Shown: piece after piece, positions 2,798 through 45,583 of the stretch
Numbering within the stretch: the stretch's first letter is position 1
How the letters are laid out: every line of letters starts with the position of its first letter
Source: Eledone cirrhosa
Taxonomy: Eukaryota
Length of the DNA stretch: 64,000 nt
Assembly (NCBI GenBank): GCA_964016885.1
Contig: OZ024741.1
Coordinates: forward strand, 30,256,001 to 30,320,000
Reading direction: 5' to 3'
The notes under the pieces: model-generated
Database searches by the model: none
The model's input: only the letters and a program-made list of their open reading frames with translations
Told to the model about the DNA's origin: nothing
Made by a program: the position numbers and the translations under genes

Positions 2798-2886
<89 letters not shown>

Positions 2887-6250: not shown

Positions 6251-6251
6251 C

Positions 6252-6398
6252 CTTCATAGCAAGAAATATTTTTCTTTACAATGGCTCTTCCAGCGCGTCC
6301 TCCGGGAAAACGCCTTCTCCATTCTCTCCGCCGGGGCTGTGGGGAGGCCATCAATATGATTGACTGACTTGACATAGAGTAGAAACAGAAGACATTGG
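6252..6398 (-). CDS. Candidate internal exon, 147 nt, symmetric phase 1, unknown product
   Basis: Acceptor GTTCTTTCAG, donor AAG|GTGAGG, one open frame NVFCFYSMSSQ..KKNISCYE; no recognisable homology; abuts a LINE fragment and could be part of it. Confidence 0.2.
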
Positions 6399-20500: not shown

Positions 20501-21170
20501 TAGCTGTGGAGGTATTTTGTCCCAATATAGCTTCATTCTGTTCATATAGCCAACGGAGGTATGTTTTGCCATTTTATAACAACTAAATAAATCACTATTA
20601 AGTTCGTAACTCCAAGAGAAGTGTGACTTATAATTTCGGTTTCTTCTGTAGCTACAACTGAATAAGTTTTGTTTACCTTTCTCGTTGTTTTTCTTCAGTA
20701 CTTCCTTAATGTTGTTGATGTTGTGTTGAGCCAAACTGTTTGTAGCAAATCCTTGTAAAATGAAATATGTATTTAGTCGGATATCTCTCTGAATTCGAAT
20801 AAAAGGTGTCTTCAGTGGATCTAGTTCGAAGAATAACCAGTTATTCAACATGACTGGTAGTTCTGGCATTACTGTCGGAGATATTATTCATCTTAAATTT
20901 AATGAATAATCTCCCACGCCAAAATGTGCGACTGATGACGTTGACTGTAAGTATGTATGTATGTTTGCATGTACGGACGTATGTATGCATATATGAATAT
21001 ACGTATGTATTTTTGTATGTAAGTATGTATATATGTATTTTTGTATGTGCGGCACATGGAAATGCTCGGTTTGGTGCCCCAGCGCGCGGTTAGCTCATCG
21101 GGAGTGAGAGATCCCTAGTTCCTGTTAAGATTTCATTCTAGGATATAAGTCCCGGCATTGGTGTTGGAAA
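17600..21170 (-). mobile_element. Near full-length degenerate R4/Dong-type non-LTR retrotransposon (RT + CCHC + RLE)
   Basis: DYRKVFDS, GIFQGDSLS, FVDDL, YRYLGI, CRLC..HVISSC, RHDVVAK, HNRPN and VVEVS motifs in ORFs 17631-20869. Confidence 0.9.
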
Positions 21171-21174
21171 AAAA

Positions 21175-22020
21175 AGAGGTTTGCGACCCACTGCATTTTT
21201 TAGCTGAGAGTAGAAGGCTCGCAGATGTGTCGCTTAGTCTCTGACGAAGCAGTGTGGTGTTCTGGCTCCAGTGGCCACTTGTATCTCGGACACGTCCTCA
21301 AGGTGAATATCGTCAAGGATTTTATTAAAATCGCCCGGACTGATTTGGTGAAGATTCTCAAAATTTATCTCCGATCATTCTAATCCTTGCGACTACACAT
21401 CCCAGGAGCCACCACAAGGTCAGTTCTGGCGGGATCCAGGGAATGTGGAGCCTCAGCGTTCTTTTACCCATGTAGGAAGGGTAGAGGATAATTTCGTTTG
21501 TTTTACAGGGGCCCAATGAGTAGTTTATGGCAAGGGTATCGGTTTTGAAACATACCGAGATGATGGCGAAATGACGGCCCCCGTGCTATGTACTCAATGT
21601 CGTCTCTGATGAATATAAGTGCTGCGTCCATTTGCGATCGGGGCCTAGTTCTGCTTTACATGTTTGCACTGAAATGCATCGCTAAATCAGTGTCCTTCTT
21701 TGAGTTTCTGCCATTACTGGTCCAAACGCTCTTTCTTAACTGAGATAGCAACTTGAAATTAGTGTCTTAATTGTGTAGTTGCGGCTGCGAATGTGCTGTT
21801 GTTGTTGGTTATGTTGGTGTCGTTATTACTTTTGCTGGTCGTGTCGTTCTTCCTCTCATTGCTGGTGTTGTTGTTCTCGTTGTTGATGTGGTCGTTGTTT
21901 CTCTCATTTGTTTTGTTGTTGGTGCTGCTGGTGTTGTTCGTTTTGCGATTGTTGCACTTATTTGTTTTGCTTTTTGTTGTCTGCGTTACTGCTGTTGTTG
22001 TTGGTGGTTATACTGCCCTG
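21175..22020 (-). mobile_element. Degenerate Tx1-type LINE ORF1 fragment
   Basis: Minus-strand translation PSYMGKRTLRLHIPWIPPELTLWWLLG (21401-21480) matches the ORF1 at 38272-38667; decayed CF..THLRAF knuckle; N/T-rich N-terminus. Confidence 0.75.
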
Positions 22021-22035
22021 GCGGTGCTAGTATTA

Positions 22036-22227
22036 ATAATTGTTTCTACTTTTGGCAAAAGGTCTGCAATTATCCCAGTGCATTACTGGTACTTTATTTT
22101 ATCAACCCCGTAAGGATGAAAGGCAAAGTTAACCCCGGCGGGATTAGCACTCAGACCATAAAGGGCCGTAACTCTTTGCTGCAAAGCATGGCGTCCGACC
22201 CTCTACCGATACTGCAAATCCATCGCC
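22036..22227 (-). mobile_element. SINE family A
   Basis: Reverse complement of 215-403. Confidence 0.9.
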
Positions 22228-25876: not shown

Positions 25877-26063
25877 GTGGATTGGCAGTATCGGTAGAGG
25901 GTCGGAAGCGATGCTTTGCAGCAAAGAGTTACGGCCCTTTATTGTCTGAGTTCAAATTTCGCCGAGGTTAACTTTGCCTTTCATCCTTACGGGGTCGATA
26001 AAATAAAGCACCAGTAATACACTGGGATAACTGCTGACCTTGTGCCAAATGTAGAAAAAAATA
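25877..26063 (+). mobile_element. SINE family A; tail interrupted by a LINE fragment
   Basis: Near-identical to 215-403; ends GTAGAAAAAAATA directly into Tx1 sequence. Confidence 0.9.
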
Positions 26064-26551
26064 TTTTATCTGTCTGGTGGCCATGGCGAAAGAGATAGTA
26101 TGGTGGACGCGTCTGAAAGGGCTGAAGACGAGCACTTACCTCTTCGGTGATGCCCTGATTAACTCTTTCCAATTTCATTTGAAAAGGAAAATCAGGGTAG
26201 AGAGGTAGGTGCCCTCTTCCCAGCTTTTTGTTGAAAGATGGGTGAGAGAGGAAAGAATGGCCCGAGTGAATGTATACTCTGAGTATATGCCTGTAAATTG
26301 AAGGTGGAAAAAAGGGTGAGGACATTTGCCCTGGTGGTCAGGCTCACCGTGGCTTTTTTTAATGGGCTTTCTCCACGATGGCCCTCGGAAGTCTCCCCCT
26401 TATTGGGGAATTTGTCATTGTTCTTTTATTACATCCTCTGATTTTTTTGTTTTTGTTTACACGCAGAAATGTCTATTAGTACACTCCTGTATTGTCCTGT
26501 ACTGTCCTTAATGTCTACGTTGTGTAAACCCTTGTGGTTAATAAAGAAAGC
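26064..26551 (+). mobile_element. 5'-truncated Tx1-type LINE (ORF2 end and 3' UTR), followed by (ATT)n at 26552-26620
   Basis: Highly similar to 32769-33247. Confidence 0.92.
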
Positions 26552-26562
26552 ATTATTATTAA

Positions 26563-26620
<58 letters not shown>

Positions 26621-27306
26621 GTTACGCTTTGAGTCTTAGACATTGATGTTATTTAACTGGAAAGTTTGTTGAATTGAATATCAAGCCGCTACCTGCAGCC
26701 TCAGATATTCAGGATGTATCGGAGTGTTCTTGCTGTTCCCAGCAAGCAGGCCCTTTGAAGCGTTCCAAAAAGCGGGGCTGGACTAATCTTCTTTAACCAT
26801 CCTTGGAAACTCTTTGAGATTGTACCTACTGCGCCTATGACAATCAGGATGACCATGATTTCATGGCAGTTGCAAATCCTTTTTACCTACCACTTTAAGT
26901 CCTGGTATCGGTTAATTTTCTCCCTCTCATTTTCTTGCACTCTCGTGTCAAATGTGCAGGCTACATCTACAATCAGGCACGATCTTTTTTCCTTGTTCAA
27001 AACCACCAGGTCAGGTCTATTGTGTTCTAATTTGTTGTCAGTCTGTATATTAAAATCCCAGAGCACCTTCACCTGATCGTTTTCTATCACCGACTCTGGC
27101 TTATGCTTATACCACCTCTCAGAATGTGGCAAATTGTTTCCTTTGCATAGGTGCCAGTGGATCAACCTGCCTATCACATCATGTCTCCAGCCTTTATAGT
27201 AAGTCTGGACTAGGTGTTTACACTCGGATACAATGTGAGCCACATTCTCCTCTCTCTCTCCACAGATCCTACACAGTGGGCTAGCATCCTCCTTGTAAAT
27301 ATAGTG

Positions 27307-27308
<2 letters not shown>
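26621..27308 (-). mobile_element. 5'-truncated R4/Dong-type LINE (RLE domain), flanked by (TAA)n on both sides
   Basis: HIVSEC..WRHD..LWDFNIQTD..HNRPD..IVDVAC..EKINRYQDL; close relative of 42838-43520. Confidence 0.92.
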
Positions 27309-27363
<55 letters not shown>

Positions 27364-27572
27364 GGCGACCTACGTAGTAAATCGTATCACCGTGAGCTCC
27401 GCAAAGGTTTGTTATTTCCGTTTGTTAAAAATTGTCATTTATGGAAAATTTTATTGTTAACTGTTTATAAGCGCACATACATTGTTTTCCGAAAAGGATA
27501 CCCAAAAAGATTGGGGCCTTGTGCCCAAAATTTAAAGTTTTATGATTATCAAAACATTTCTTTGAAAAAAAA

Positions 27573-29557
27573 ATGGCTAATTCACCACTGCACCAAGCAG
27601 CTGAAAGCCTTTCTCACAAATTAACACCTCACACCGACACCACCATTGTAAATGTTACTACGTTTGCCAAGACTACAAAAAATATAAGCAGTAGCAATAT
27701 TTTAAATTTGTCTCAGGCAGACATTCATTTCCCGCCATTACCAATGACTGCAGGTGTTAAAGCCACCACCACCACCGCGACAACCACCACCCCACCACCA
27801 CCGCGACAACAGAAACAAAAGAAGAAAAAAATAAATTAACTCGTGATGTCGAAATGAAATCAAGCAAAATGGACTCTTCCCCACCAAAGACCACTGACGT
27901 CACCACCACCACAACTGAAACTAAAATTAATATTAACACAAATAACGATAGCAACAACAACAACATTGACATTATAAAAACCACCCTCAGTTTTGCCAGA
28001 GTAGCAAAACAGTTCGAAGCATTTACGGTAACTCAGGAGGATTTAGAAAATGCCAAATAAATGGTAATGACAGATGGGTACAGGGTCAGCCTCTCACCCC
28101 CCACCTAATAAAATGGAGCATCGGCGCCTATGCACCGTGTCGTATAGAACAATAAATGTAAAATCGCGCCGAGTGAAACGGGCATCCGAGTCCCAAATCC
28201 AAAAAGCTTTGGGACATGTGTGGGCAAGAAAAACCCACATCAGACGTGGGCAAAAGTATGGAACCGTGGACGTGTTCTTTGATACACCAGAGGAGGCTAG
28301 AGAACACTCCATGGCCCCATTAAGAAGTGACGACTTCACACTCGTCCCAAGCTATTGTGGCCAGAGACTCGTAAAGATCAGGGTGACCCACGTTCCACCG
28401 GCCATCGAAATTCCCTGGCTAATAGCGGCCGTCCTCGCCGGCATCGAAGCCAACACGAAAATAATAGCAATAGCAAAAGAAAAGCAGGAAAACTGGTCCG
28501 AATCTGGGATGGAGCTCCTGATCCAAGCGGACCAAAAAAGCATTGAGGAGATCCCAGAGGTAATAGACCCCACTGACGGCAGCCACCTCACGGTGATTGT
28601 CGAGGGCAGAAGACCTAGGTGTGTCGTTTGTGGTGAAGGAACCCACGTAAGGGCTTTCTGCCCTCAGGCTAAAAGGTTGAGGCCACCTCTCCTACCCACC
28701 CCAGTGACACAACCATCAACACCACCAGTAGCAGAGATAGCAGCAACAACTGTAGCAGCAACAACAGAAGCAACTATAACAGCAACAACCCCAGCAACAG
28801 TAGCAAAACCAACACCACCACCACCACCAGCAAAAGCAACACCACCAACCAACGCTTCAGAACTAGCACCAGCGCCTACACCATCCACCACGCCACAACC
28901 AAAACTAACGCCTGTGGAGGATTTTCCACTCCCCGGCCTATCACAACTGGAGACAGATTGTGACGACGAGGAGTGGGAAACGATATCAGGAAAAAAAAAA
29001 GAAACCAAATAAGAAAAAATTCTCTTCCTTCCCCCTCCAAAAACAAAACACAGAGGGAAACAAATAAATTAAGAAACAAAAAAGTTAGGACAGATATGCC
29101 ACCATCCACACCAGCATCACCAACCCCATCAACCCAAACACCAACACCATCACCATCATTAACCCAACACCACCATTACCTACACCACAAAGTCACCAAA
29201 ATGCGAAACAGAAACAAACCCACAACAAACGCAAACAAAACAAAACAACCAAAACGATACACACTACACAGCATTAAATTTGAACAACAAGCAATTATTA
29301 CACTACATCCAACACAAAACCAGCATCACAGAAAAAGACTACACAACAACCCCAAAATTCACACCACCTCCACACATACAAATCACTTGCATCACACAGA
29401 AAACGTACATGACACTAAAAAAAAAAAATTCCCCAAAGACAACGGAGATCTCCGACAAGCACTCTCCAGGAGGATTTATAAGGACATCCTTCCTGAGGAG
29501 GCCACAAGCAGTGAAAAGGATGGAAAGACCGTCCTTCCCCTACGAGAAGTAAGGTAA
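27573..29557 (+). pseudogene. LINE ORF1 (RRM-like region plus CX2CX4HX4C zinc knuckle), frameshifted
   Basis: CVVCGEGTHVRAFC knuckle; YGTVDVFF RRM-like strand; P/T-rich low-complexity tail; split over ORFs 27573, 27854, 28074, 28973 and 29280. Confidence 0.85.
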
Positions 29558-29591
29558 GTGGTCTTTTCCATCTTTTCCACTCCTTTTCAAC

Positions 29592-32500
29592 ATGACCTCA
29601 CTCAGAATAGGCAGCATAAATGCGCGTGGCTTGGGGCCGTCATGGAAGCAGGGTCACCTGCTCAACGACCTCAGGTCACTAAACATAGATGTAGTGGCCA
29701 TCAGCGAGACCAGAATCTCCGAAGCACAGGCTTTCGCACCGATCTTCGGCGGCTACACTGTGTACGCATCTCCCAGCCGTCCGGGATCGGGGGGAGGAGT
29801 TGCTGTGCTTTTTCGGAGAGGTTTGGATCTTGCCATACGGGCCATCTTCCTGGACCCAGAAGGTTAGTTGGTGGTGCTGGACGTGACCAGCGGAGACGGG
29901 CAAGCTTTCAGGTTAGTGGCCGTCTATGCCCCGACAGGAGCAGGGCGGCCTGATTTATTCCGGCGTCTGGAGACCTTTCTTGGAACCTCCCACTCTTTAG
30001 TGTTAGTGAGCGACTGGAACGGGATCTTAGATGCATGCTGGGATTGTGTGGGATTAGTGGATAGGGAAGGAGGGTGCAAGAGTCTCACCAACCTGCTCAG
30101 ACGTTTTGAACTGTCTGACAGGTACCGAATGGATTTCCCAAATGTACCAATGTGGACTTGGACAAATCGCATAGGGTCATCCAGATCATATCTAGATAGA
30201 GTATTTTGTAGGGAAATAGATAGGTCTAGCATAGGCTGTCCACAATTCAAGATAGTCAGCTACACGGACCACAAATTCGTGATCTGTGTGCTTGACTTAG
30301 ATAGGCTTCATAGACGAGGACCCGGCTACTGGAAGCTAAACGCGTCCTTACCAGCGCGCAAGGCCTACAGAGACCGGATTAGCGAACTAGTTAAGCGGGC
30401 GTTGACGGGGCCATCGTCAACAACAAGTGGTGGTTTGCTCTGAAAAGAGCAATTAGAATAGAGTCCATTAGGTTTAGTAAAACCTTAACAATAGAGAAAA
30501 ATAGAGCAGAGGGAGAATTAGTTAGAAAATTAGATGAGGCGCTTAGCAAAGGCATCGCGACCGACGTACTTGCGGCGAAATTGGCCCTTGACCAATTCTT
30601 CAATGCAAAGCACGAAGGCTGCGTTGTCAGAGCTAGGGTGCGTGCTCTCAGACACGAGGGGACGAAAGCCGTTCAATGGGCCCGAGTGGCGGAGGCGCGT
30701 CCTGGCAACAAAGCCACGATCCGTTCTTTGGTGGACCACGACGGGCGGATGCTACTCGATCCCGGGCAAATGTGTGAAGCTTTTCAGCGACACTTCACTC
30801 AACTGTTCGGGGACAGTGGCGGCCGGATCGACGGATGGACTTTAGTGTCTACCTCGACGGACTGCCGCGGCTTTCGGCCACTGAGGCGGAGTGTTGCGAA
30901 AAGCCGATAACAACCGCTGAAGTACGGGATGCAATGACTAGTTGCACAAGGGGTAAATCGCCTGGTTTGGATGGTCTGCCCTATGAACTTTACGTACAAT
31001 TGCCAGACTTGTTCGGAGGCCTCTTGGCGGACGTCTGCTGCAATTGGCAACGGAACGGGAGAATTCCCAGCTCTGTGAGCCGAGGAGCGGTGGCGCTGCT
31101 GAGAAAGGATCCGAACAAGGGGGATAACATAGATAATTTTAGGCCCATAACTCTGCTAAACACAGAGTTCAAGATTTTGGCCAAGGTGCTAGCAAAGAGG
31201 TTGGCGCTTGTCGTTGGTGGTCTGGTGGGAGAGGCGCATACATGCGCCATTCCTGACAGATCAATCCACGACAACCTCCACCTGATGCGATACATCGTAG
31301 AGAGGGTAGCTAGGGAACCTGGCACGGGTGGGTCTTTGATAAATTTAGATCAGTCGAAAGCCTTCGATAGGGTCGACCATCGTTACCTAGCGGCAGTCCT
31401 GAGGGCGGCTGGCTTTGGGTCCGTCTTCAGAGGCTGGATCGATGCCATGCACAGCGACATCTGCTCTGTAGTGAGAGTGAACGGTCACCTTTCGGAACCG
31501 TTCAACATCATGCGCTCGGTCCGCCAAGGATGTCCCCTCTTGTCGCTATTGTACGTATTGACTCTCGAGCCATTACTGCACAAACTGGAGACGTTGATGG
31601 GGGTCCCGCGCGAACTAGGATGCGGAAGATCCGTGTCAGCATATGCCGACGATGTCACCGTAGTGGTATCGAACGCCAAACACATCGAGGCGATCGGCAC
31701 TACACTAAGAGAATACGAAGTGGTGACAGGAGCAATGATCAACCAGGAAAAGTCAGTGGGCCTGCAGCTCAGAACCTGGAGAGGCAGGTCCATGCCGTCC
31801 CACAGCGTCGTCGGGCGCTGGACGGACCGGTAAATTGCTAGGGCTCTGGTTCTGCCCAGACCTCCAGACGGACAAAAACTGGGACGAGGTGACGAGCAGG
31901 GTGGCTTCTCTCACCCAGAAATGGGCCGAGAGGAAGCTATCCCTGAAAGGTCGAGCGGAGGTGGCTAACGCGTACATCGCGTCCGTCATCTACTACCGCC
32001 TGACCGTCGTACCTTGTCCTAAGCCCCGCCTGACTGCGCTGGAGCGTTGGCTCTTTCGCTTCTCGTGGAAGGGACGCGCTCCGATGGTCAGGCGGTCCAT
32101 CTGCAGTCAACACCCGCTACGTGGAGGGCTGGGCATGCCGTGGCTGATGATGCGCAGACACGCGCTCAGGCTACGACATCTCCACCTCTTCCTCGACGGT
32201 GATCAGGTGTGGTCGCCGTTTGCTAGACGCGTTTTTCCCCAGCTCGTCTCCTTGACGGAGCTGCAGTTCTGGGTCAAGCGAAGACTGAGAGGGAGTGCTT
32301 GGAGACTGGAATATCTTCAGGCGCTCACAGCCCTCGACCAATCGGGCAATGTGGTCATGGAAACTCCACCTTGGCGTTCTATAGGGGATTAGTGGAGGGG
32401 AAGAGCGACGACGTACTTGGGGAAAGTCTAGGTGTCGACGAAAATCAATTAGCCAATCTCTTCGGAAGGACTTTCGAGCCGGGGCCTATGGACAACTTCC

Positions 32501-33003
32501 AGAAATCTCTGGCCTGGCAGTGCTACCGGGGTGCTTTGCCAGTTCGGGATAAACTTTACAGGCATGGAGGTGCCGTCAGCCGGGCATATCCGAGATGCGC
32601 ACAGGGCGACGTAACCGTCCTGCACGCACTCGTCCAGTGTCCGAGCATTGCTGACTTGTGGGTTTATGTCGAACACCTCCTGTCACGTGTAGGACGGATC
32701 CAGCTATCAGCTGAGTCCATCGTGAGGATTTCGCCGCCCTCCTCATTTAGCCGGGAAGGGCAGGCAGTTTTTATCTGTCTGGTGGCCATGGCGAAAGTGA
32801 TAGTATGGTGGACACGTTTGAAAGGGCTGAAGACGAGCACTTACCCCTTCGGTGATGCCCTGATTAACTTTTTCAAATTTCATCTGAAAAGGAAAATCAG
32901 GGTAGAGAGGGAAGTGCTCTCTTCCCAGCATTTTGTTGAAAGATGGGTGAGAGAAGCAAGTATGGCCCGAATGAATGGGCCTTCTCTGAGTATGTGTCTG
33001 TAA
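29592..33003 (+). pseudogene. LINE ORF2: apurinic-like endonuclease, reverse transcriptase and C-terminal zinc motif, disrupted
   Basis: SINARG, ISET, VYAP, DWN, YLDR and TDH (EN); KSPGLDG, FRPITLLN, DQSKAFDRV, QGCPL and YADD (RT); PRC..HALVQC; stop at 29867 and several frameshifts. Confidence 0.93.
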
Positions 33004-33261
33004 ATTAAAGGTGGAAAACTGGGAGAGGGCACTTGCACTGGTGGTCAGGGCCACTGTGGTCTTTTAATGGGCTTTCTCCACAAATGTCCCTCGGAAGTCT
33101 CCCCCCTATTGGGGAATTTTTCTTTGTTATTTTATTTCCTCCTCTGTTTTTTTTACACGCAGAAATGCCCATTTGTACCGTCCTGTATTGTCCTGTACTG
33201 TCCTTAATGTCTACTTTATGTAAACCCTTGTGGTTAATAAAGAAAACATTATTATTATTAA

Positions 33262-33297
<36 letters not shown>

Positions 33298-33298
<1 letters not shown>

Positions 33299-36200
33299 GT
33301 TACATTTATCTTGCTTTATGTTCATATGCGTAATCACCAAGTCACAACCAGTGACCTCAAGAGACAACAAGGTCCGCCATGTTCAAGAAAGAACATACAT
33401 ACACACACATGCATCTTTAGGTGTTTAGACTTGTGATGTACTTATATTGACAGAATCTTCCTTAGTATATGGGCAGTTCTCATTAGTACTATCTTTTGTA
33501 TCTCTCCTATACGCAAGTTTCCTAGAATGTGCGATAAGTAATCATTACACCCCTTAGGTATCATTCCTAGAGAGCCTACAACCACTGGTATTGTTTTAGT
33601 TCTCAATTTCCACATTTTTCCAATTTCTATCTCCAGGTCCTTATACTTACTCAATTTTTCAAATGTTTTTATAGATACATTCTTGTCTATTGGAACGGAC
33701 ATATCAATTAGCAGGCATACTCTCTTTTTAAAGTCCTTCAGTATTATATCAGGTCTATTTGCATCTATTTTTCGGTCTTTTTGGATACTAAAGTTCCACA
33801 AGATTGAGATATGATCTGTTTCAAGTATGGGAGGTGGTTGATGCTCCCACCAATTCTTTTCATTGGGCAGGTCAAAATGCTTACACATTATCCAATGTAT
33901 GTATTGTGCAGCTCTCTCATGCCTGTTTAGGTATTCGGTTGGAGCTATATAGGACTGCACATTGAAATTATATGATCAATGGTCTCTGGTTGTTTATTAC
34001 ATACACGGCATAATGGGTTGCATCCATTTTTTATTATGTTGGCTTGGTAATTTTTTGTTGACAGACACTGATCTTGTGCTGATATAATCAGTCCTTCAGT
34101 CTCCGATTCCCGTCCAGAGGATGCCAACCACTTATGGGTTAAAGTTTTGTCAACATCAGGATTGCTAACTCTTTGCGGGTATTTTCCATACAGAGGCTTT
34201 TCTTGCCATTTCTTAGTCAGTTTCTGTAGCAGTCCTTTCTTTGCAGTTACTTTTTCCTGCTTTGCTTTTTCTGTGTTTTCCATTTCAGCAGTAAATGTGA
34301 CTTCTGAAATGTGTAGTCCATTACTGTATCTTTGTGCATCTTTTGTAATGGAGTATGATCTTTTGATGCTTTCGTGTTTCAAAACGAGTTTGATCATCCA
34401 ATCATGTGATTCTCTTAGATATGTAGATAATGCAACTGTTGCAGTTTTCAATGCAATATCTAACTGGATTAAGCCACGCCTCCTTCTTTCCTAGGGGGGA
34501 TATATTCTATCTGTATCTGCCTTAGGGTGATGGATTCTGTGCATGGTTAAGAATTTTCTAATGTTTGTATCGAGCCTACGGATCTCTGTGCTTGACCAGT
34601 TGATGACATTGTAACTGTAGGTTACTACTGGTATGGCAAGCGTGTTTATGGCATCGATCCTATTCCTTGCATTCAATTCCGTTCTTAAGATTGCTCTTAC
34701 TCTGCGGTAACATTCCTTCCTTATCCTTTCCATCATTGTCGAGTGCTTGATTCCGTCTCCTTCACAAACACCTAAATATTTGTAAGTTTCCTCTTGATCA
34801 AGTTCTCTTATCACATTCCCCCAAACAAAATTAATGTCTGAACTTTTCAGCAGCTTTCCTCTGGTGAACGCTGCTTTGGCGCATATATCTAGACCAAACT
34901 CCATTTTAATGTCATCACTGAAATGCCCCACAGTGGATAATAGCCCTTGCAATTGTTCATTATTTTATTGCAAATAGTTACAGGTCATCCATGTAGTACA
35001 AGTGATTAATGGTTTTATCATAGACATAATATCCATGTTTTGTTTCATTGAGCATTTTACTTAATGGTATAAGTGCGATGCAGAATAAAAGCGGTGATAA
35101 AGAGTCACCCTGAAATATGCCACAATTAATATTAACTTCTCCAGCTTCCAGTGATTTTGTTTCACTATTCAAAGGGAGTGTCGGTTTCCATGTCTTCATA
35201 CTGAATGACAGGAACCTACTGACAACGGGAGATACTTTGAAAATCTCTAAACATTTTTCAATCCAACTGTGTGGCAAACTATCGAATGCATTTTTATAAT
35301 CTATCCAAGCAATTGATAGATTTTTGTGTCTATTATGACAATCTTCCAGTATCATTTTGTTAACCAAAAGCTGATCCTTACAGCCATATGGGCCTCGTTT
35401 ACACCCTTTCTGGTCATTGGGAAATAGATCATTTGTTATCAGGTGGTCATATGTATATTCAGTTAGGACTGATCTTAAAATTTTATACATTGTGTTCAAG
35501 CAAGTTATCGGTCTGTAATTTTTGGTATTGTTTGTCTCATCATTCTTCGGATGCAGGAATGTAATGCCGTTAACTAGCCATGATGGTATCTGTTCTGGCT
35601 CCTTAACTATTTCATTGTAAAGTTGGGCTAACAGCTCATGAGACTCCGTGAAGGCATTTATCCAAAAATTTGGTATTTTGTCTTTTCTTGAAGGTTTCCA
35701 TGTGGTTGGTTTTTCTAAGAGCCAAACGCAGCTGTTCAACTGTTATATTTTCCCATATTTGTTCCTCAAGGTGAGCTGTATCTTTCATTTGTCTGTCTAT
35801 CCATGGGGCATTTATATTATAAACTTTTTCTTCGGCCCAGATCTTTTCCCAGAATTCTTGCACTTCCTCCTTGGGTGGTATTGATTTAGCAGTTATTGTT
35901 GACTTGCCAATTTTCCTGTAGAAGTTTTTCTTTGGTTGTTTTTGAACATATTATTGACCTTATAGAATCTAGATCGTTTTTCAAAGCGCCTTATACGAGC
36001 AGCTTTGGCCGACACTTTTTTCTTGATTATTTCTATCAGCATGTCTATGTCACTTGTTGATTTTATACTGTATTTTCTTTTCAATTTTCTAAGTTTAGTT
36101 TGTTTAACATGTTTACTTTGTAGTTTGTTAAAATTTCTATGTCAGATCGGAGGAGGTTTATTTGGCGATTGATGTTCTCTTACCAAATAGATTTCTTGTT

Positions 36201-37250
36201 GTAATTCCTTTGTTCTTTCATTTTCACTCCACATAAGTGCACTTACTTTAGTCGATGCATAATAGAGATGATTTAAATCAGTAATGTTTAGCTTGTTTGT
36301 GATGATAATGTTTTTGAGAATTATGTTAGTCTTGCGTATTATTTGTTGGTTCTGTTTGGAGTTCTGGATCTTAGGGAGAGTGTCTCGTTCCCCCATGTCA
36401 GATTCTTTTATTTTCATCCATTCGATCATAATTTCATCCTTCAAGTTGGCTAGTTCATTCTCATTTCTTTCTTTATTATTTACGATCTCATTGTTTTAAT
36501 TTTGAGTTTCATCATGGGCATGCCCTCCCTCCACTTTTTCGATCCTTTCTTTAATTTGTTCTGTTGACAGTGATTCCGCCCCAACCCTGGGATTCGAAGA
36601 GTTACAGTTTACCTCGTTTTGACTGACACATGTTTCACTTTCCCTTCGCTGACTTTGTGGTAATAGCTTGATCTGATCAATTTCTATATCAGTTAGTAAC
36701 TTTTTTTAACAATATTTCTTCGTATATTGGCTAGTTTGTTACTGTCAATATAGCCTCTGTTTTCGGGATGTTTCTTTTTCCAGTTGATATATGTCTGTTC
36801 TGTATTCGATCTATCTAATGGGTAGTACATGGCAGTGTAGAAAGCCTCACGTACTTCTTTATTTTCTTCCCTTGACTATTTTTCTCTCTTTTTCTTTGGC
36901 TGTCTTGGTGGTGAGCAAGGAGGGCCAACAGTAGGAGTATTCCGGTTATGGGAGGTCTTCAGCTCCGAAGTGATGTGAAGGTTTGAACCATTAGCTGATT
37001 TTTCGACCCCAGTCAGGTTCCTAACTGAGGGACGCGGCCCTTTTTGACCCGGGAGACGGCCGATCAGGTATGAGATTTTATCATTTGACATTTACTTTAT
37101 TTTGTCGCGTTTTATCCTTAACCGCCAAGGGCTAATCAATTCGTGTTACCACTTCTAGGACAAGTGTCAACCAGGACTAGAGGGGTTGTCCTCCCGCCAT
37201 CCCGGTATTTCTTGGTCACGGGGTTTTCTTTTTTGTTGTTTTTTTTTTAA
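33298..37250 (-). mobile_element. Near full-length R4/Dong-type non-LTR retrotransposon, 3' end on (TAA)n
   Basis: Single disrupted ORF 37091->33442: SREENKEV N-terminus, NYRPITCL, WIDYKNAFDS, GIFQGDSLSP, YMDDL, YKYLG, CRVC..HIIS, NRPD, IDMSVP, EKLSKYKDL. Confidence 0.93.
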
Positions 37251-37498
37251 TTGTTATTATCATGAGTGGTACCTTAATGTGAGCATTGCGTGGCTTAAGA
37301 ATGAAATTATTATTAATAATATAATATACTTTTTGTTGAGGTTGCCTGTTATTGTTGTTGGCTATGTCGGTGGTGGTGCTGGGGCTTTTTCTATTGTTGG
37401 TGAGGAAGCAGTGCCACAGGCGTTGACGTTTGACCGGTCACTAAATCAGTCTATTTATATATTTTGCTAGCCCCTATATTATTATTATTATTATTATT

Positions 37499-39062
37499 GG
37501 TCTAAGCGGACGTATTTTGCTCGCTCACAGTAAGTCGCTTTATTTTCCTGTTTAAATTATTTGTTGTTAAATATTTCTTGTTGTGTAAGGGATATAAGCC
37601 CTTAGACTTTGCCCCGTGAAGGTGAAATTATAATATTTGGGCCTTTTGGCCCAAATATTTGAACTTTATTTTACATGTTAAAAAATTTACGAAGAAAAAA
37701 ATGACATGGCTGAGCCACGCCCCCCAGCGATATGTCGGCTGTCGTGCGACAGCGACGTAGAAGTTGAGAGGAGCGCTACAGTGAAATTAACACACATTGA
37801 TAACACAAACACCACCACAAACAAGGTAAACAAAGACACCAATGATACCAATAAGAACTCTAATTTTGAAAAAAATGACAATAACAGCGACAACAAAAAT
37901 ACAGATAACAAAAAAAAATAACACATACAACAATATCAACACCACTAACTTGAAAACAAATAGCGATGACACCAACAGCAACAATACCAACTGCACCGAG
38001 AACAACGGTGGCAACAAAGACAACAATGATAACAGCGACAGTGCTAACAACAACACCAACAAGAACAACGTCAAAAACACCCCAACGAAAACAAGACCAC
38101 TTTCGCTGCGGCAGCAGCAAAAAAGAGGCCATGCTTCAACATGGACCTCTCAAACAAAGATGAAAAGTTGGCCCAGACATGGGAGCTCATCAAGCAAGAG
38201 CAAACCTGGGCCAACTTAACTGTCCCGGTAGAATCTATTGAGGCAGTGGAGCGCAGAACGGTGCATTATAGATGCATTTCAGCACAGACCAAAAGGGCAG
38301 CTTTAATCCCACAAGAAGATGTCGAAGTCGCACTGAGGTGCATCAGACAAGACACCGAATACATCGAGAGAGAGGCAGACAGTACGGCACAATTTCGGTG
38401 TTGTTCAAGTCAGAATCCCTCGCTATGAAACACGCTATGACTCCTTGCAAAACCAGCAAGGTCATAATTTACCCCTCCCACATGGGAAAAAGAACGGACC
38501 GTCTCTGCATTCCCAGAATTCCACCAGGACTTGACATGTGGTGGCTTCTGGGATGTGTGATTGTGGAGGGGACGGATACCGTCCCTGTAGAAGTGACCAT
38601 AACGGCAAGAGAGGACTGGTCCGGGGTTGACCTGGAGATCCTTCTCCAGATCTGCCCGAGAATGTGAAGACAATCCCGGACTACATCCGCCTTCAGAATG
38701 GGACGGTCATTCACATTATGACCGAAGGCAAAAGGCCGCAGTGTTTTGTTTGTGGGGAAAAAACCCATTTGCGAGCCTTCTGCCCTCAACTGCTGAAAGA
38801 GGCAAGGGGTCGAAAGGCTCCACTGCTGCCGACGCCGGGGCGGGGACCACAATCAACACCAGCACCGGCAAAACCACCAACAACAACACCAATAGAAAGA
38901 CCACCACAAACATTGACCACCCAGGGGGAAACGAGGAGAGCTGTCAAATTCCCCCTCCCCCCAAAAATACACACACCAATAAAACCATAAACATACATGC
39001 AGACACACTTACAGACACAGACGCCTCATCTACCAGTAGTGAAGATGAGGGAAACCCAAACG
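37499..39062 (+). mobile_element. Tx1-type LINE subfamily 2: 5' UTR and ORF1 (C-terminus missing), preceded by (ATT)n
   Basis: YGTISVLF and CFVCGEKTHLRAFC knuckle; starts ATT|GG like the element at 27364. Confidence 0.88.
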
Positions 39063-41270
39063 TCCAGGTGCCGAGTTGCAAGCCCACCGACTTTTCCGAA
39101 TTAAATTTTGCTCCCGTCAATCTTTCATATTCCTCCAATAAGTTGCTGACCAGCTCGATTTCTGAGGTGTCCGACACCATCACGGTGATGTCGTCCGCAT
39201 AAGCCGACACAGCCTTTCCGCGTCCCGGTTCGAGCGGGATGCCCAACAACAGCTCCAGCTTCCGCAGTAAAGTCTCGAGAGTCAATACGTACAGAAGGGA
39301 GGAGAGAGGGCACCCTTGACGGACCGATAGGGAGACCTGAAACAGTCCCGAGAGGTGGCCTTTAATTTTGACCATCGAGTAGGTGCCGCTGGGCATTGCA
39401 GCGATCCAGCTTCTGAAGACGGGGCCGAAGCCAGCCGCCTTGAGGACAGCCTCAAGGTACCGATGGTCGACCCTATCGAATGCTTTCGATTGATCTAAAT
39501 TGATCAGAAACCTACCGAAGCCAGGTTTACACCCTACCCTCTCTATGATGTATTGCAATAGGTGGAGGTTGTCGTGTATGGACCTGGTTGGGATTGCGCA
39601 AGTTTGGGCCTCCCCAACCAAATCCGCGACGACAAGCGCCAACCTCTTCGCTAACACCCTGGCCAAAATCTTAAACTCTGTGTTGAGCAGAGTTATGGGC
39701 CTGAAATTGTCTAATGTGTCCCTCTTGTTCTCGTCTTTCCTTATCAGCGTCACTACGCCCCGGCTCACAGAACTGGGAATACTCCCGTTTTGCTGCCAGT
39801 TGCAGTAGATGGCTTCGAGGAGATTGGAGAACAAGCCTGGAATATTTACGTAAAGCTCGTAGGGCAGATCATCAAAAGCGGGTGACTTGCGCCTCATGGG
39901 CATCCTGAGACGACAAGGGCATCCTGAATCTTGGCTGAAGTAATTGGCCTTTCGCAGCGCCCAGCGTCAGCCGTCGAGAGTTGCGGGAAGCCATCGAGGT
40001 AGGGACTGAAGTCCGCAACCATCTCTGACCCGCCACTTCCCCCGGACAACTGAGCAAAATGTTGGCGAAAGGCCTCACACATCCTCTTGGAATCGCTCAG
40101 CTCGTACCCGTCTCGGTCCGTCAAAGACTGGATCGTGGATTTATTACCACGCTGCGCCTCTTCCACGCGGGCCCATCGAACAGCTTTGGTTCCTTCGTTT
40201 CTCAGAGCACGCGCCTTAGCTCTGACAATGCAACCTTCGTGTTTCGCATTGAAGAAATGGTCTAATGCCATTCTCGCCGCTAGCATGTCAGTTGCAATGC
40301 CACTACCAATAGCTTCGTCTAACATATCTACCAACTCCCACTCCTTTCTATTTTTCTCTAATGCTACTTCTTTGCTAAACTCTATCGACATTACTCTAAT
40401 CTCTCTTTTGAGAGAGCCCCCCATCCCCCATCTATTGTTGACGATTCTCCCTATCAACGTTTTCTTAACCAAATTGTTGACCTGGTCCCTGTAAGCCTTA
40501 CGTGCCAGAAATGACATGTTTAGCTTCCAGTAACCAGGTCCTAACCTACGCGTCTTATCTAGGTCGATCATACATATCACAAACTTGTGATCTGAATAGG
40601 CGACCGTTTCAAAACGTGGACATCTTACACTATTTCTGTCTATTTTCCTAATGAATATCCTGTCTATATACGATCTAGATGACCCTATGCGGTTAGCCCA
40701 GGTCCACACGGGCGCATTAGGGAAATCTAGTCCCGTACCTCTCAGACAGTTGGAACTGGCTGATCAGGTTCTTGAGGCTTTTGCAATCCCCGCTCCTATC
40801 GGATACTCCCCACAGTCCCAGCGTGCGTCTAAGATGCCGTTCCAGTCCACCGCTAACATTAAAGGGCGAGACGTACCCAGAAAGGCTTCCATGGGTCTAA
40901 AGAAGTCCGGCCGTCCTGCCCCAGTAGGAGCATAGACGGTCACCAGTCTAAAGGCACCACCTTCGTTATTGTTCACGTCCAGGACCACCAACTTACCGTC
41001 CGGGTCCCGGAAAATCGACCTTATCTCGAGATCCAAGACTTTCCTAAACAGCACTGACACCCCGCCTCCCATTCCCGGCTGGCTAACAGATGCAAAGATC
41101 TGATAGTCGTCGAAAATGAGGGCTAGTGCGAGCGTGTCGGAAATCCAGGTCTCGCTGACAGCAATTACATTCATTTCTATAAACCTGAGGTCGTTGAGCA
41201 GGTGACCCTGCTTCCAGGACGACCCAGGCTTCGAACATTTAAACATCCTACTCTTAATACGGCCATGTTG
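39063..41270 (-). mobile_element. Inverted ORF2 5' segment (EN + RT) of the Tx1-type LINE
   Basis: The minus strand begins CAACATGGCC (ATG at 41266, MAVLRVGCLNVR) and runs through SETW, VYAP, SDH, FRPITLLN and YADD to EKSVGLQLGTW. Confidence 0.93.
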
Positions 41271-42742
41271 GCTGGACGGACGGACCGGTAAAGTTGCTAG
41301 GGGTTTGGTTCGGGCCAGACCTCCAGGTGGATAAGAATTGGGACGAGGTGACAGGCAGGGTAGCCAGTCTCACCCAGAAATGGGCCTGGATGAAGCTATC
41401 ACTGAAAGGTCGGGCGGAGGTGGCGAACGCGTACATCGCGTCCGTCATCTACTACCGTCTGACTGTCGTCCCTTGCCCCCGTTCGCGCCTCGCCATCTTA
41501 GAGCGGCTCCTCTTCAAATTCTTGTGGAGGGGTCAGGTTCCGCTGGTGAGGCGGTCCATCTGCTGCCAGCACCCTCTACGTGGAGGGCTGAGCATGCCGT
41601 GGTTAATGATGCGCTGCCACGCGCTGAGGCTGCGGCATCTCCAGATATTCTGCCTAAACGGTGAACAGGTGTGGTCGCCGTTTGTCAGACGGGCCTTTCG
41701 CAGCTCGTTTCTTTGACTGAGCTGCAGTCCTGGGTTAAGAAGAGACCGATACTGGGTGACTGGCATCTGGAATTTGCCAGGCACTCAGTGCACTCTACCA
41801 GGCGGGCTATGCGGTCAGTGGAGCTTCCACTCTCGAGTTCTATAGAGGATTAGTGGTGGGCAAGTGCGACGACGCACTCGGAGAGGCTCTGGGAGTAAAC
41901 GAAGTCGAACTAACCAGTCTGTACCGGAGGACTTTCGACCCGGGGACGATGGATAATTTCCCAAAATCCCTCGCTTGGCAGTGCTACCGGGGGGGCACTG
42001 CCGGTTCGAGATAAACTCTACAGGCACGGAAGTGGTGTCAGACGGACTTGCCCGAGATGCGCGCAGAGCGACGAAACCGTTCTGCACGTACTCGTCCAGT
42101 GTCCGTGCATTACTGACTTGTGGAGTTATATTGAACAGCTGTTGTCGCGTGTAGAACGGACCCCGCTATCGGCCGAATCCATAGTGAAGATCGACCCGCC
42201 GCTTTCTTTTGGGCAGGAAGGGCAGGCAATTTTCCTCTGTCTGGTGGCTGTAGCGAAAGAGGCTGTATGGTGGACGAGGTTGAAAGGACTGAAGACAGAC
42301 ACTTTTCTCTTCGGCCAATCCCTCATCAACTTTTTCAAGTTTCACTTGGAAAGGAAGGTGAGGGTGGAGAGAAAAGTACTGCCTCCCAGTTCATTTGCTG
42401 AAGGTGGGTGAATGTGGCGAGAATGGCCCGTGTAAATGGGCCTACTCTGGTCATGCGGCTGTAGGTAAATTTGAGGAGGAGAGGGGTTCCCTTCCAGGGT
42501 GCTCTCAAAGCGTCGGGTCGTTCAGGACTGGTGGGGTACCTGAGCGAACCCTAGGTGGTCATCCCCCGAATTGGGGAATTTTTTCTTGTTGTAATTTTAT
42601 TGTTACTTTATTGTTACTTTGTTGTTGTTACTTTGTTCTGTTATTCATATTGTTTACTCTATTTTTCTGTAAAACCCCACTGTCCCAGTCTTTTGTATTG
42701 TCCCCTATATGTCGGCCCTTGTGGCCAATAAATGAAATCATT
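41271..42742 (+). mobile_element. ORF2 3' segment and 3' UTR of Tx1-type LINE subfamily 2
   Basis: WTDGPVKLLGVWFGPD.., CPRC..HVLVQC; ends GGCCCTTGTGGCCAATAAATGAAATCATT. Confidence 0.93.
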
Positions 42743-42810
42743 GGGGTCGATAAAATAAAGTACCAGTAATACACTGGGTATTTGCTGGCCTTGTGCCTAA
42801 CGTAGAAACA
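42743..42810 (+). mobile_element. 5'-truncated SINE family A with (ATT)n tail at 42811-42837
   Basis: GGGGTCGATAAAATAAAGTACCAGTAATACACTGGG..GGCCTTGTGCC..GTAGAAACA. Confidence 0.9.
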
Positions 42811-42837
42811 ATTATTATTATTATTAATATTATTATT

Positions 42838-44190
42838 GTTCTTTGAGTCTCAGTCATTGATGTTTGTTAACTGGAAAGTTTGTTGAAATGAATATCAAGG
42901 CACTACCTGCAGCCTCAGATATTCAGGACGTATCGGAGGGTTCTTGCTATTCCCAGCAAGCATGCCTTTTGAAGTGTTCCAAAAATCAGGGCGGGGCTAA
43001 TTTTCTTTAACTATCCCTAGAAACTTTTTGAGTACCTAGTGCGGCTATGACAATCGGGACCACTTTGACTTCATGGCAGTTCCAAATCCTTTTTACCTCC
43101 CACTTTAAGTCCTGGTATCGGTTAATGTTCTCCCTCTCCTTCTCTTGCACTCTTGTGTCGAATGGGCAGTCCACATCCACAATCAGGCACGATCTTTTTT
43201 CCTTGTCCAAAACCACCAGGTCAGGTCTATTGTGTTCCAGTTTCTTGTCCGTATGTATCCTAAAATCCCACAGCACCTTCACCTGATCGTTTTCTATCAC
43301 CGAATCTGGCTTATGCTCATACCACTTCTCAGAATGTGGTAAATTGTTTACTTTGCATAGGTGCCAGTGGATCCCCCTGTCCATCACATCATGCCTCCAT
43401 CCCTTATAGTGAGTCTGGATTAGGTGTTTACACTCGGATACAATGTGAGCCACAGTCTCATCTCTCTCTCCACAGATCCTACATAGTGGGCTAGCGTCCT
43501 CCTTGTAAATATGGTGTTTCAACCACTTCGTTTTGAGGGCCTGCTCTTGCGCAGCCATTAACATTCCTTCTGTAGCCTTTTTAAGGTCTCCTCTTTTCAA
43601 CCAGTTCCATGTCTGTGGATCTCTGAATTCAGTTTTCTCAAAGAAGGTACTATGAAGGGATCTTTCATGAAGGCTGCTCTTTCTCCCTGCTGTTATTTAC
43701 TCCTTGGACATCCACTGGTCTATTGTCCTCTCCTTCAGTACAATTCTGAGCATTGGCTCCTTACTATCAGTCACGTATTTGTGTAGGTTGTTTTTCTCCA
43801 TCTGAACACAGTCCTCTATGTTGATAAGACCTCTTCCACCTTCAGATCTCCTTAAGTAGAGTCTATCGACATCACTCCTTTTGTGGAACATGTTGTAGAT
43901 AGTCAATAGCTTCCTAGTCTTCCTAACCATTTCTTTTTGTTCAGCAATATTCCATCACAGAATTCCCGCACTGTACCTAATAATAGACATAGCTCGGGAA
44001 TTTACTGCACTTATGGCATTCCTACTGTTCAGATGTGACTTTAAAACGCTCCTTACTCTCCGAATGTATTCAGATCTTATCAATTCCTTCATTTTTTTGT
44101 TCTTGATGTCATTGGCCTCCAGAACACACAAATACTTGTATCATTCTTCAATGTCAATTTCCTTTATCATCTCACTTGTTGGTACCTGGC
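42838..44190 (-). mobile_element. 5'-truncated R4/Dong-type LINE (RT C-terminus and RLE)
   Basis: YKYL, DVDRLYL..GGRGL, TEGMLMAAQEQAL, CRIC..HIVSEC, RHD, HNRPD. Confidence 0.92.
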
Positions 44191-44217
44191 TTCTGTTGCT
44201 TCTGCTCTAATTACTAA

Positions 44218-44459
44218 TAAGTTTATGTTTCCGAGGCAATCCAAATTGAATCGACAGAGGAACGGACAAAGCGTGTGTTCTTGAATCCTTCGCCCGCTCT
44301 TTTGTGAGTCCCAATTCACCCCCACCGGTGTGCGTAGGCGCAAGCATGAAGGGTGTTGACCATCAACTACCCCAAAGTTCTAAGAAACCCGCCTAGGTAG
44401 GTCCCCCTCTCAATCAAACCTGTCGATTCAATTTTGATTGCCTCGCAAACATAACCTTA
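44218..44459. mobile_element. MITE-like element with 40-bp terminal inverted repeats
   Basis: TAAGTTTATGTTTCCGAGGCAATCCAAATTGAATCGACAG versus the reverse complement of 44420-44459 (3 mismatches); TA/TWA flanks. Confidence 0.8.
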
Positions 44460-44610
44460 CTATGTAAAAAGCTGTCCGATGATGTCACGGCACTGGGTAC
44501 ATCGAAGCGTGTGGCCACTGTCGTCATTGAAATATGTATAACATCATTATGATTAAAGACTTTAACATCTGAAACTACTTCGCTTCTTCTTATTCTACAT
44601 ATATATATAT

Positions 44611-45583
44611 AAATTCAGCGAGAATCGTATTTCGGCTGGTAGAAAAAGCGAAAGGAAACGCAAAATTGTAGACATGCTGGCAAGTTCTCCAGTAGTTAAG
44701 AAAACTAGAGCTAAACAATATCTTAAACCGCGATACAAACTGAAAAAGTGGCCAAGAAGGCATTAAGCACCTAAGCCAAAAAACAAATCAAGCTAAACAG
44801 GCCAAACAAAATAAATGATAAAAACAGACCTGGACCCAAATGGAATTGATGGTAAAATCCAAATGCAGGGTTTCTATGACATCTAAATCAATAATATTGT
44901 CTGCTTAAAACTATAAGCTTTTCGCATAATGATCGAACAAGGAATATCACGTTATCAACATGTATTTTGATCTGCACCAATTTTGTGAATGACGTAGAGC
45001 TTTGTAAAAGTGTGACTTACAAGGGGAAAAAACCGCAGATTTTGGCAAATGAATTCAGTATGTGTATATCATACAAAAAATAGCATAGGTAGCACAAATC
45101 GAATAAGCACTCAACTGGGTATTTGTTAAAATGAACTTATGCAATTAATCTGTCAATAGAATTATTAACAGGTTAATTGTAAGACTCGGGAGATTAATAC
45201 AAATATAAATTCAGCGAGAAACGTATTTCGGCGGGTAGAAAAAACGAAACGAAACGCAAAATCGTAGTTATGCTGGCAAGCGCTCCAATAGTTAAGAAAG
45301 CTAGAGCTAAACAATATGTTGAAACTCCATACAAACTGAAAAAGTGGTCAAGAAGGCATTAAGCACCTAAGCCAAAAAACAAATCAAGCTAAACAGGTCA
45401 AACAAAATAAATGATAAAAACAGACTGGACCCTTTGGAATTGATGGTAAAATCCAAATACAGGGTTTCTATGACACCTAAATCAATAATACTGTCTGCTT
45501 AAAACTATAAGCTTTTAGCATAATGATCGAACAAGGAATATCACGTTATCAACAGGTAATTTTGCTCTGCACCAACTTTGTGA
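44611..45583. repeat. Tandem 1.6 copies of a 596-bp repeat, bounded by (TA)n
   Basis: AAATTCAGCGAGAA at 44611 and 45207; the second copy stops at (TA)n; a third copy lies at 2888. Confidence 0.9.

What the first reader, a model, noticed from the sequence alone, without database searches (positions are those of the whole stretch)
25877..44190. 18-kb self-seeding retrotransposon train on an (ATT)n/(TAA)n landing pad with strict strand polarity
Seen order: SINE-A(+), Tx1 fragment(+), (ATT)n, Dong fragment(-), (ATT)n, full Tx1(+), (ATT)n, full Dong(-), ~230-bp spacer, (ATT)n, Tx1(+), SINE-A fragment(+), (ATT)n, Dong fragment(-). That gives three tail-to-tail Tx1/Dong pairs. Known: Dong (R4 clade) elements target TAA repeats, and some Tx1-clade families target microsatellites. 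Inference: an APE-type LINE with its SINE and an unrelated RLE-type LINE use opposite strands of one microsatellite, and each insertion regenerates the target, so the array grows in alternating orientation. Convergent 3' ends could make it a dsRNA or piRNA source or a TE sink.
Basis: partly seen in the sequence, partly recalled or inferred. Interest (0 to 1): 0.8.

Follow-up and report, generated by a model that had tools for sequence, protein, structure and literature searches.

The report
Two LINE clades share one microsatellite
In this 3-Gb genome (likely an octopod), Tx1-like jumping genes sit on the ATT strand and unrelated Dong/R4-like ones on the AAT strand of the same simple repeat, and they likely pile into self-renewing trains; this 18-kb array is one mid-sized example of a genome-wide pattern, with no rule of alternation.

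Summary
The array is real, and the strand rule holds genome-wide. All of the first 100 of 2,651 Tx1A 5' ends directly follow an in-register ATT tract. Only 2 of 1,359 Dong 5' ends follow ATT instead of AAT. 113 of 114 neighbour pairs obey family polarity; background is 0.23%. Several details need correcting. There are two Tx1 and two Dong families. The 'full Dong' is 5'-truncated and the 'spacer' is Dong sequence. The third Tx1 has a 2.2-kb internal inversion. Order is random, not alternating (p=0.83). The SINE is not tract-specific: it inserts at unique sites with target duplications, and its short ATT tail serves as a pad for Dong. Longer trains (28 and 46 kb) occur elsewhere, and 2 of 40 evenly spaced 10-kb windows hold one. 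Dong targeting of TAA and Tx1 targeting of other microsatellites are published. ATT-targeting Tx1 sharing Dong's tract on the opposite strand was not found in eight literature searches (Repbase not searchable). The dsRNA/piRNA role is untested. Verdict: new variant of a known kind.

The parts
25877..26063 (+). tRNA-type SINE, near full length; tail ends in a single ATT
   Evidence: A/B-box-like motifs read from the sequence (consensus recalled)
26064..26551 (+). Tx1A-family 3' fragment (family positions 5406-5882), older copy
26552..26620 (.). (ATT)n/(AAT)n tract, shared tails
26621..27309 (-). DongA 3' fragment (CCHC, RHD, RLE region)
27310..27363 (.). (ATT)18 tract between DongA truncation point and Tx1A head
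27364..33247 (+). Tx1A full length, 5884 nt; ORF1 with CCHC knuckle, ORF2 APE-RT-CCHC, frameshifted; AATAAA before the tail; youngest member
33248..33295 (.). (ATT)n tract
33296..37476 (-). DongB, 5'-truncated by ~690 nt, frameshifted; includes the supposed spacer
37478..37498 (.). (ATT)7 tract
37499..39062 (+). Tx1B 5' UTR and most of ORF1
39063..41270 (-). Inverted internal segment of Tx1B (ORF2 start, APE, RT), copy-specific
41271..42742 (+). Tx1B 3' part
42743..42810 (+). 5'-truncated SINE (3' 70 nt)
42811..42837 (.). (ATT)n tract
42838..44207 (-). DongA 3' fragment, truncated at a different point from the first; no AAT tract at its 5' joint

Best explanation
The array is a pile of independent non-LTR insertions in which Tx1-like elements lie on the ATT strand and Dong/R4-like elements on the AAT strand of one microsatellite, likely because each family's endonuclease and repeat tail prime reverse transcription on one fixed strand. 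Shown: fixed polarity by family, tracts on both sides of insertions, random order, mixed ages, and trains elsewhere in the genome. Inferred from the standard target-primed reverse transcription model: the Tx1 APE nicks the AAT-reading strand and its (AUU)n tail pairs there; the Dong RLE nicks the ATT-reading strand with an (AAU)n tail. Each insertion splits one tract into two, so targets multiply where elements already sit. The SINE, which inserts at ATT-starting unique sites, likely seeds new short pads that Dong then uses. In this array the oldest members (SINE, Tx1A fragment, first DongA) are at the left. The young full Tx1A likely dropped into a tract between two co-oriented Dongs, so the tail-to-tail pairs are by-products, not units.
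For: Tx1A heads: 100 of the first 100 of 2,651 end in ATT in register, 96 with three perfect units (counted by eye). Tx1B heads 29 of 29. Dong heads: AAT upstream in 26 of 30; ATT upstream in 2 of 1,359 genome-wide. 5'-truncated copies have own-strand tracts at arbitrary break points: DongA 35 of 54, DongB 29 of 34, Tx1A 6 of 17, Tx1B 0 of 3; none of the 108 has an opposite-strand tract in its place. 113 of 114 neighbour pairs obey polarity. Background 0.23%. 35 of 82 adjacent Tx1 tail pairs lie within 15 kb against 2.8 expected, 31 of 35 on one strand. 13 of 17 tracts of >=6 units in 400 kb of evenly spaced sample abut one of these elements. DongA 3' ends abut a SINE tail in 10 of 27. Nearest-copy substitutions span 1-2% (Tx1A full), about 4% (DongB, Tx1B, second DongA) and 5-6% (SINE, Tx1A fragment, first DongA).
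Against: Truncated Tx1 copies show the tract less often (6 of 17 and 0 of 3); several of the misses are inversions or deletions, but I did not resolve all. The array's right end and the SINE-Tx1A joint lack a tract. Nicking strand and endonuclease specificity were not assayed. Most flank samples were the best hits to the window's copies; only searches are independent of identity, and their listed rows come from the start of one chromosome. Some neighbour pairs may be counted from both anchors.
Confidence: 0.85

Rival explanations
1. The upstream ATT is part of the Tx1 RNA (transcription starts in the upstream tract), so full-length copies bring their own tract and need not target one.
For: Perfect ATT|GG register in 100 of 100 heads; truncated Tx1 copies lack the tract in 14 of 20.
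Against: Six truncated Tx1A copies have ATT at unrelated break points. Heads abut Dong ends, Tx1 tails or SINE tails across the tract in 24 of 28 (Tx1A) and 20 of 29 (Tx1B), which requires landing at existing tracts.
Confidence: 0.08
2. Random insertion with selective retention, or segmental duplication, built the array.
For: Repeated segments within the array.
Against: Repeated parts are 88-89% identical with different truncation points and different neighbours. Ages differ. Retention cannot plausibly turn a 0.23% background into 96-100%.
Confidence: 0.02
3. The array, or its inversion, is a misassembly.
For: Repeat-rich region; the inversion was seen in no other Tx1B locus.
Against: Each member is a distinct diverged copy; the same architecture recurs on many chromosomes. 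One inversion joint has 2-nt microhomology, as natural rearrangements do.
Confidence: 0.04
4. The trains are kept by the host as traps whose convergent elements make antisense RNA or piRNA against both LINE clades.
For: Geometry only: 46 opposed Tx1-Dong neighbour pairs; the two Dong reference copies lack AATAAA in their last 250 nt, so read-through into Tx1 is possible.
Against: Random order and ubiquity are what a neutral pile-up predicts; Tx1 tails carry AATAAA. This is a possible consequence, not an alternative cause.
Confidence: 0.12

Closest known systems
Dong (R4 clade): Dong of Bombyx mori, DongAg, DongBg; Dong of Darwinula
   Same: Single ORF with RT, CCHC and restriction-like endonuclease; N-terminal Myb/SANT-like domain without zinc fingers; inserts in (TAA)n, reported for insects, molluscs and cnidarians (PMC7998251 and PMC3812793, passages). 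Dong-R4 is recently active in Octopus vulgaris (PMC13282606, parts 1-2 of 3).
   Different: Two families here share a 5' leader (75% over the first ~360 nt) despite 39% protein identity, and they share their tracts with APE elements. No ribozyme family matched their 5' ends in Rfam, whereas B. mori Dong self-cleaves (PMC3774820, passages).
Microsatellite-specific Tx1-clade LINEs: Kibi, Koshi, crocodilian Tx1
   Same: Two ORFs, APE-RT-CCHC, insertion into a microsatellite (PMC4494074, passages and section 15).
   Different: Published targets that I saw are TC, TTC, TTCC and TTTC (the two papers swap which of Kibi and Koshi takes TC or TTC). Here at least six families take (ATT)n and sister families sit in (TATC)n and (AGT)n.
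Telomeric-repeat LINE pairs such as TRAS and SART of Bombyx (recalled, not tested or read here)
   Same: Two families in opposite orientation in one simple repeat.
   Different: Those are both APE elements of one clade and telomeric; here an APE and an RLE element share dispersed interstitial tracts that their own tails create.
Octopus tRNA-derived SINEs (OR1, OR2, OK) and Ceph-SINEs
   Same: tRNA-type head, high copy number (25,239 exact heads).
   Different: No sequence comparison was possible; partner LINE unresolved. Ceph-SINE bodies are RTE-related (PMC5786205, passages).

Membership tests
Dong/R4 clade | Single ORF with RT, CCHC knuckle, RHD and PD..D..K restriction-like endonuclease | tested here: met
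   P0001 1141 aa, P0002 878 aa; best solved relatives are R2 proteins, with the RLE stretch aligned weakly (i-E 0.062)
Dong/R4 clade | No N-terminal zinc fingers | tested here: met
   No CxxC or HxxxH in residues 1-300 of P0001; DongB N-terminus not checked
Dong/R4 clade | N-terminal Myb/SANT-like domain | tested here: inconclusive
   Confident helical model (pLDDT 81); top VIA rows are rich in Myb/SANT domains but Z is at most 6.1 (rmsd 2.3, 62 aligned), below the tool's trust level; Foldseek and Pfam blank
Dong/R4 clade | Insertion in (TAA)n on the element's sense strand | tested here: met
Dong/R4 clade | RT phylogeny with named Dong/R4 references | tested here: inconclusive
   Tree groups DongA/B with two insect proteins at 100/100, but no row is a named Dong, R4, HERO or NeSL
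Dong/R4 clade | HDV-like 5' ribozyme | tested here: inconclusive
   No Rfam ribozyme match at E<=1 in six loci; no custom motif search
L1 group | ORF1 plus ORF2 with APE, RT and C-terminal CCHC; closest solved relative L1 ORF2p | tested here: met
Tx1 clade | RT phylogeny with named Tx1/Kibi/Koshi/Keno references | tested here: inconclusive
   Groups with Argonauta, zebrafish BAC82621 and Xenopus proteins, but no L1-clade row and no confirmed Tx1 name
Tx1 clade | ORF1 with CCHC zinc knuckle (feature recalled) | tested here: met
   C-x2-C-x4-H-x4-C read directly in ORF1; no Pfam family at cut-off
Tx1 clade | Target-sequence preference in more than 20% of flanks (criterion in PMC4494074) | tested here: met
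SINE partnered with these Tx1 elements | Shared 3' tail | tested here: inconclusive
   CCTTGT..CCAA..GAAA likeness, 16/500 and 11/500 shuffles for Tx1B and Tx1C, 93/500 for Tx1A
SINE partnered with these Tx1 elements | Shared target signature | tested here: not met
   SINE heads follow (ATT)>=3 in 2 of 29 and about 10 of 100 (by eye), with 10-21-nt unique-sequence duplications in 14 of 29 against 3.4% control; Tx1A 96-100 of 100
piRNA cluster or dsRNA source | Small RNAs or bidirectional transcripts | not testable with these tools
   No RNA holder listed

The most novel reading that the evidence does not exclude
The trains are a three-party, self-feeding niche in octopod genomes in which unrelated LINE clades also trade parts. 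The SINE seeds ATT pads, Dong and a radiation of Tx1 families fill opposite strands, and Dong has captured a Tx1-type 5' promoter/leader from a train neighbour and swapped it between two distant Dong families. Opposed neighbours would then supply cross-clade antisense RNA.
Probability: 0.25. Interest if true: 0.72.

Novelty: new variant of a known kind. Interest (0 to 1): 0.47.

Why it matters
It gives a mechanism for LINE hotspots in octopod genomes: the close matches to these LINE families cover about 3.9% of a 400-kb sample, and most long ATT tracts abut them. It adds (ATT)n, (TATC)n and (AGT)n to the Tx1 target repertoire within one genome. That is a natural series for asking how APE endonucleases change sequence specificity, and how an APE and an RLE enzyme read opposite strands of the same DNA. 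It also warns that ATT/TAA microsatellite markers in such genomes often sit at TE joints. The specific array is not special.

Tried and rejected
Strict alternation: rejected. Segmental duplication: rejected. A spacer at 37300-37476: it is Dong sequence. Splicing at the GTAAGT near the element heads: no spliced copy among 45 DongA-motif, 29 Tx1B and 27 Tx1A sites, and internal deletions are all unique with little microhomology. Read support for assembly joints: short-read contigs were too fragmented; none bridged the inversion joint, but nearby unique stretches were uncovered too, so no conclusion. Expression: no RNA holder listed. Ribozyme at 5' ends: no Rfam match. Partner LINE for the SINE tail: none among 134 tail-like sites in the fetched loci, and no RTE-like RT surfaced. 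Dong leader as Tx1-derived: pairwise alignments were positive but profile searches were weak (best E 0.02; reverse E 8.5), and all 30 sampled leaders run into Dong, so no donor was found. A TAATTACTA repeat at both array ends could be the founding SINE's duplication, but the right copy overlaps the inverted repeat at 44211-44467; not claimed. No earlier scan notes were found.
Full report
Setting. The window lies at G000:C2:30256001-30320000 in a 3.0-Gb genome. The closest named relative of the Tx1 protein is from Argonauta hians (70%), so the host is likely an octopod; I did not try to name it further.

Anatomy. Self-comparison, ORFs and Pfam and full-length natural reference copies give, left to right: SINE(+) 25877-26063; Tx1A 3' fragment(+) to 26551; tract; DongA fragment(-) 26621-27309; (ATT)18; full Tx1A(+) 27364-33247; tract; DongB(-) 33296-37476; (ATT)7; Tx1B 37499-42742; SINE 3' half(+); tract; DongA fragment(-) 42838-44207. 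Tx1A and Tx1B are 72-77% identical. DongA and DongB proteins are 39% identical. DongB lacks its first ~690 nt, and the 'spacer' is shared with other DongB copies. Tx1B carries 39063-41270 inverted, with ~620 and ~37 nt missing at the joints; none of the 19 other Tx1B loci showed this. The geometry fits either twin priming into an older copy or a later inversion; I cannot separate them. All LINE copies here are broken.

Identity. Tx1A has ORF1 with a CCHC knuckle and ORF2 with APE, RT and CCHC; L1 ORF2p is the best solved relative. DongA is one 1141-aa ORF with RT, CCHC, RHD and an RLE stretch; R2 proteins are the best solved relatives. Its N-terminus has no zinc-finger motif and models as a small helical domain whose best matches are mostly Myb/SANT domains at modest Z (at most 6.1); Foldseek found nothing. 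This agrees with R4/Dong as described in PMC7998251 (passages). The RT tree lacks named clade anchors, so 'Tx1' and 'Dong' rest on architecture and target, not on phylogeny.

Target and polarity. In 400 kb taken at even steps, 0.23% of positions follow (ATT)>=3. Of 2,651 exact Tx1A heads, the first 100 by position all end their upstream flank in ATT in register; 91 have four perfect units and 96 have three (counted by eye; the pattern excludes a G at position -12). Tx1B heads: 29 of 29. Dong heads: 26 of 30 have AAT upstream, and 2 of 1,359 have ATT. Among 5'-truncated copies with intact tails, own-strand tracts precede 35 of 54 DongA, 29 of 34 DongB, 6 of 17 Tx1A and 0 of 3 Tx1B; none has the opposite tract instead. 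The Tx1 figures are the weakest point. Across 230 anchors, 114 had a neighbour in a Tx1-Tx1, Tx1-Dong, Dong-Dong or SINE-LINE pair (10 SINE-SINE pairs left out): Tx1-Tx1 same strand 25, opposite 1; Tx1-Dong opposite 46; Dong-Dong same 21; SINE-Tx1 same 7; SINE-Dong opposite 14. Some joints may be counted twice.

No alternation. Beside Tx1 anchors lie 31 Dong and 26 Tx1; beside Dong anchors 21 Dong and 15 Tx1 (p=0.83). Two trains chosen because hits clustered there span about 46 kb (order DDDTTTDTTTD) and 28 kb (DTDDTT), all polarity-true. Two of the 40 evenly spaced windows hold a tract-joined train, which extrapolates loosely to thousands. One search counts 13,119 Tx1 tails. Of its first 100 rows I dropped 17 not followed by ATT (12 followed by TATC-type repeats); among the other 83, 35 adjacent pairs lie within 15 kb against 2.8 expected under uniform spacing, 31 on one strand. 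A few of these may be local duplicates.

The SINE. It is abundant (25,239 exact heads) but not tract-specific: 2 of 29 heads follow (ATT)>=3 and 3 of 29 tails reach three units. Fourteen of 29 have a 10-21-nt duplication, usually starting ATT, against 3.4% of mismatched pairs. Ten of 27 DongA tails abut a SINE tail head-on, so SINE tails are a common pad. Its partner LINE is unresolved.

Ages. Substitutions to the nearest fetched copy are 0.8-1.9% for full Tx1A, about 4% for Tx1B, DongB and the second DongA, and 5-6% for the first SINE, the Tx1A fragment and the first DongA. With the O. bimaculoides rate quoted in PMC13282606 (0.0036 per Myr) this spans roughly 1-3 to 7-9 Myr; the rate is from another species and the sample is limited. 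The youngest element sits between two co-oriented Dongs, so the central 'pair' is likely incidental. Different truncation points and 88-89% identity between like members exclude a segmental duplication.

Mechanism. By target-primed reverse transcription (established for L1 and R2; not tested here), the nicked strand is the complement of the element's sense strand. Tx1 would nick the AAT strand and Dong the ATT strand, each tail pairing with its primer, and each insertion leaves a tract on both sides. Thirteen of 17 tracts of six or more units in the even sample abut one of these elements. Whether specificity comes from the endonuclease, from tail pairing or both is open.

RNA role. No RNA run was listed. 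Tx1 tails carry AATAAA; the two Dong reference copies have none in the last 250 nt. The piRNA idea is untested.

Side lead. DongA and DongB share their first ~360 nt at 75% and further blocks to ~630 nt, and some copies join a DongA-like leader to a DongB body (L312, L314). The leader aligns with Tx1A/B 5' UTRs above dinucleotide shuffles (z 4.6-5.9), above local shuffles (z 2.8-4.2) and at or above 1,999 of 2,000 background windows for three of four pairs, the outlier likely being a Dong leader. Profile searches were weak and no donor was found. Suggestive only.

Literature. Dong in TAA repeats, including molluscs, is known (PMC7998251, PMC3812793; passages). Tx1 microsatellite targets TC, TTC, TTCC and TTTC are known (PMC4494074; passages and one section). 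Dong-R4 and L1-Tx1 are active in O. vulgaris (PMC13282606; parts 1-2 of 3, no target analysis seen there). I also read passages of PMC4640811, PMC4758252, PMC5786205, PMC9115989 and PMC3774820. Kojima and Fujiwara 2004 and Xiong and Eickbush 1993 were seen only as citations. Eight searches showed no ATT-specific Tx1 and no shared APE/RLE use of one dispersed tract. Repbase Reports and subscription journals were not searchable and I opened no supplements; Tx1 target lists there could bear on novelty.

Verdict. Alternation, the SINE partnership and the RNA function are not supported or not tested. New variant of a known kind; interest 0.47.

Noticed in passing
L299:327-1035, L305:1577-2200, L312, L314: DongA and DongB share a 5' leader despite 39% protein identity; some copies join a DongA-like leader to a DongB body; the leader weakly resembles Tx1 5' UTRs (A-run ATGG at ~220 nt, GTAAGT near +45).
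   Followed up: partly
L206 (G000:C3:320.00-320.01 Mb); rows: A sister Tx1 family sits in tandem within (TATC)n; 12 of the first 100 Tx1 tails are followed by TATC-type repeats.
   Followed up: partly
window 3619-5178 (+); L198: Tx1B-like copies flanked by (AGT)n, suggesting a third microsatellite target.
   Followed up: no
G000:C1:81357406-81363444 (in L344): A Tx1 with a different 5' UTR/ORF1 start (Tx1F head) runs into sequence 94% identical to Tx1A ORF2, suggesting 5' module exchange among Tx1 families.
   Followed up: no
window 37300-37320; G000:C1:35298130-35298157: DongB carries an internal ATTATT-AATAAT site ~870 nt from its 5' end; a Tx1A head sits at this site in another train. It may be the fossil 5' target of an ancestral DongB.
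   Followed up: no
window about 17600-20900 (-) and 5187-6400 (-): Two further degraded RT/RLE-type LINE pieces, 25-33% aa to DongA/B, not in ATT tracts.
   Followed up: no
window 44211-44467: Element with 47-bp terminal inverted repeats (MITE-like) directly abutting the array's right end.
   Followed up: no
window 44601-44988, 45197-45583 and 2869-3100: A ~390-bp repeat in two nearby copies (92%) with a third partial copy near 2.9 kb.
   Followed up: no
window 21395-21622 (-): Old Tx1B-like ORF1 fragment (68%) next to a SINE at 22035-22222.
   Followed up: no
Tx1A/Tx1B/Dong loci: 38 distinct internal deletions (16, 8, 9, 5), each unique, mostly with 0-3 nt microhomology and no GT-AG pattern.
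   Followed up: yes
G000:C1:10317138-10417349 (rows): About ten SINE heads with near-identical upstream flanks within 100 kb, pointing to local tandem or segmental amplification.
   Followed up: no
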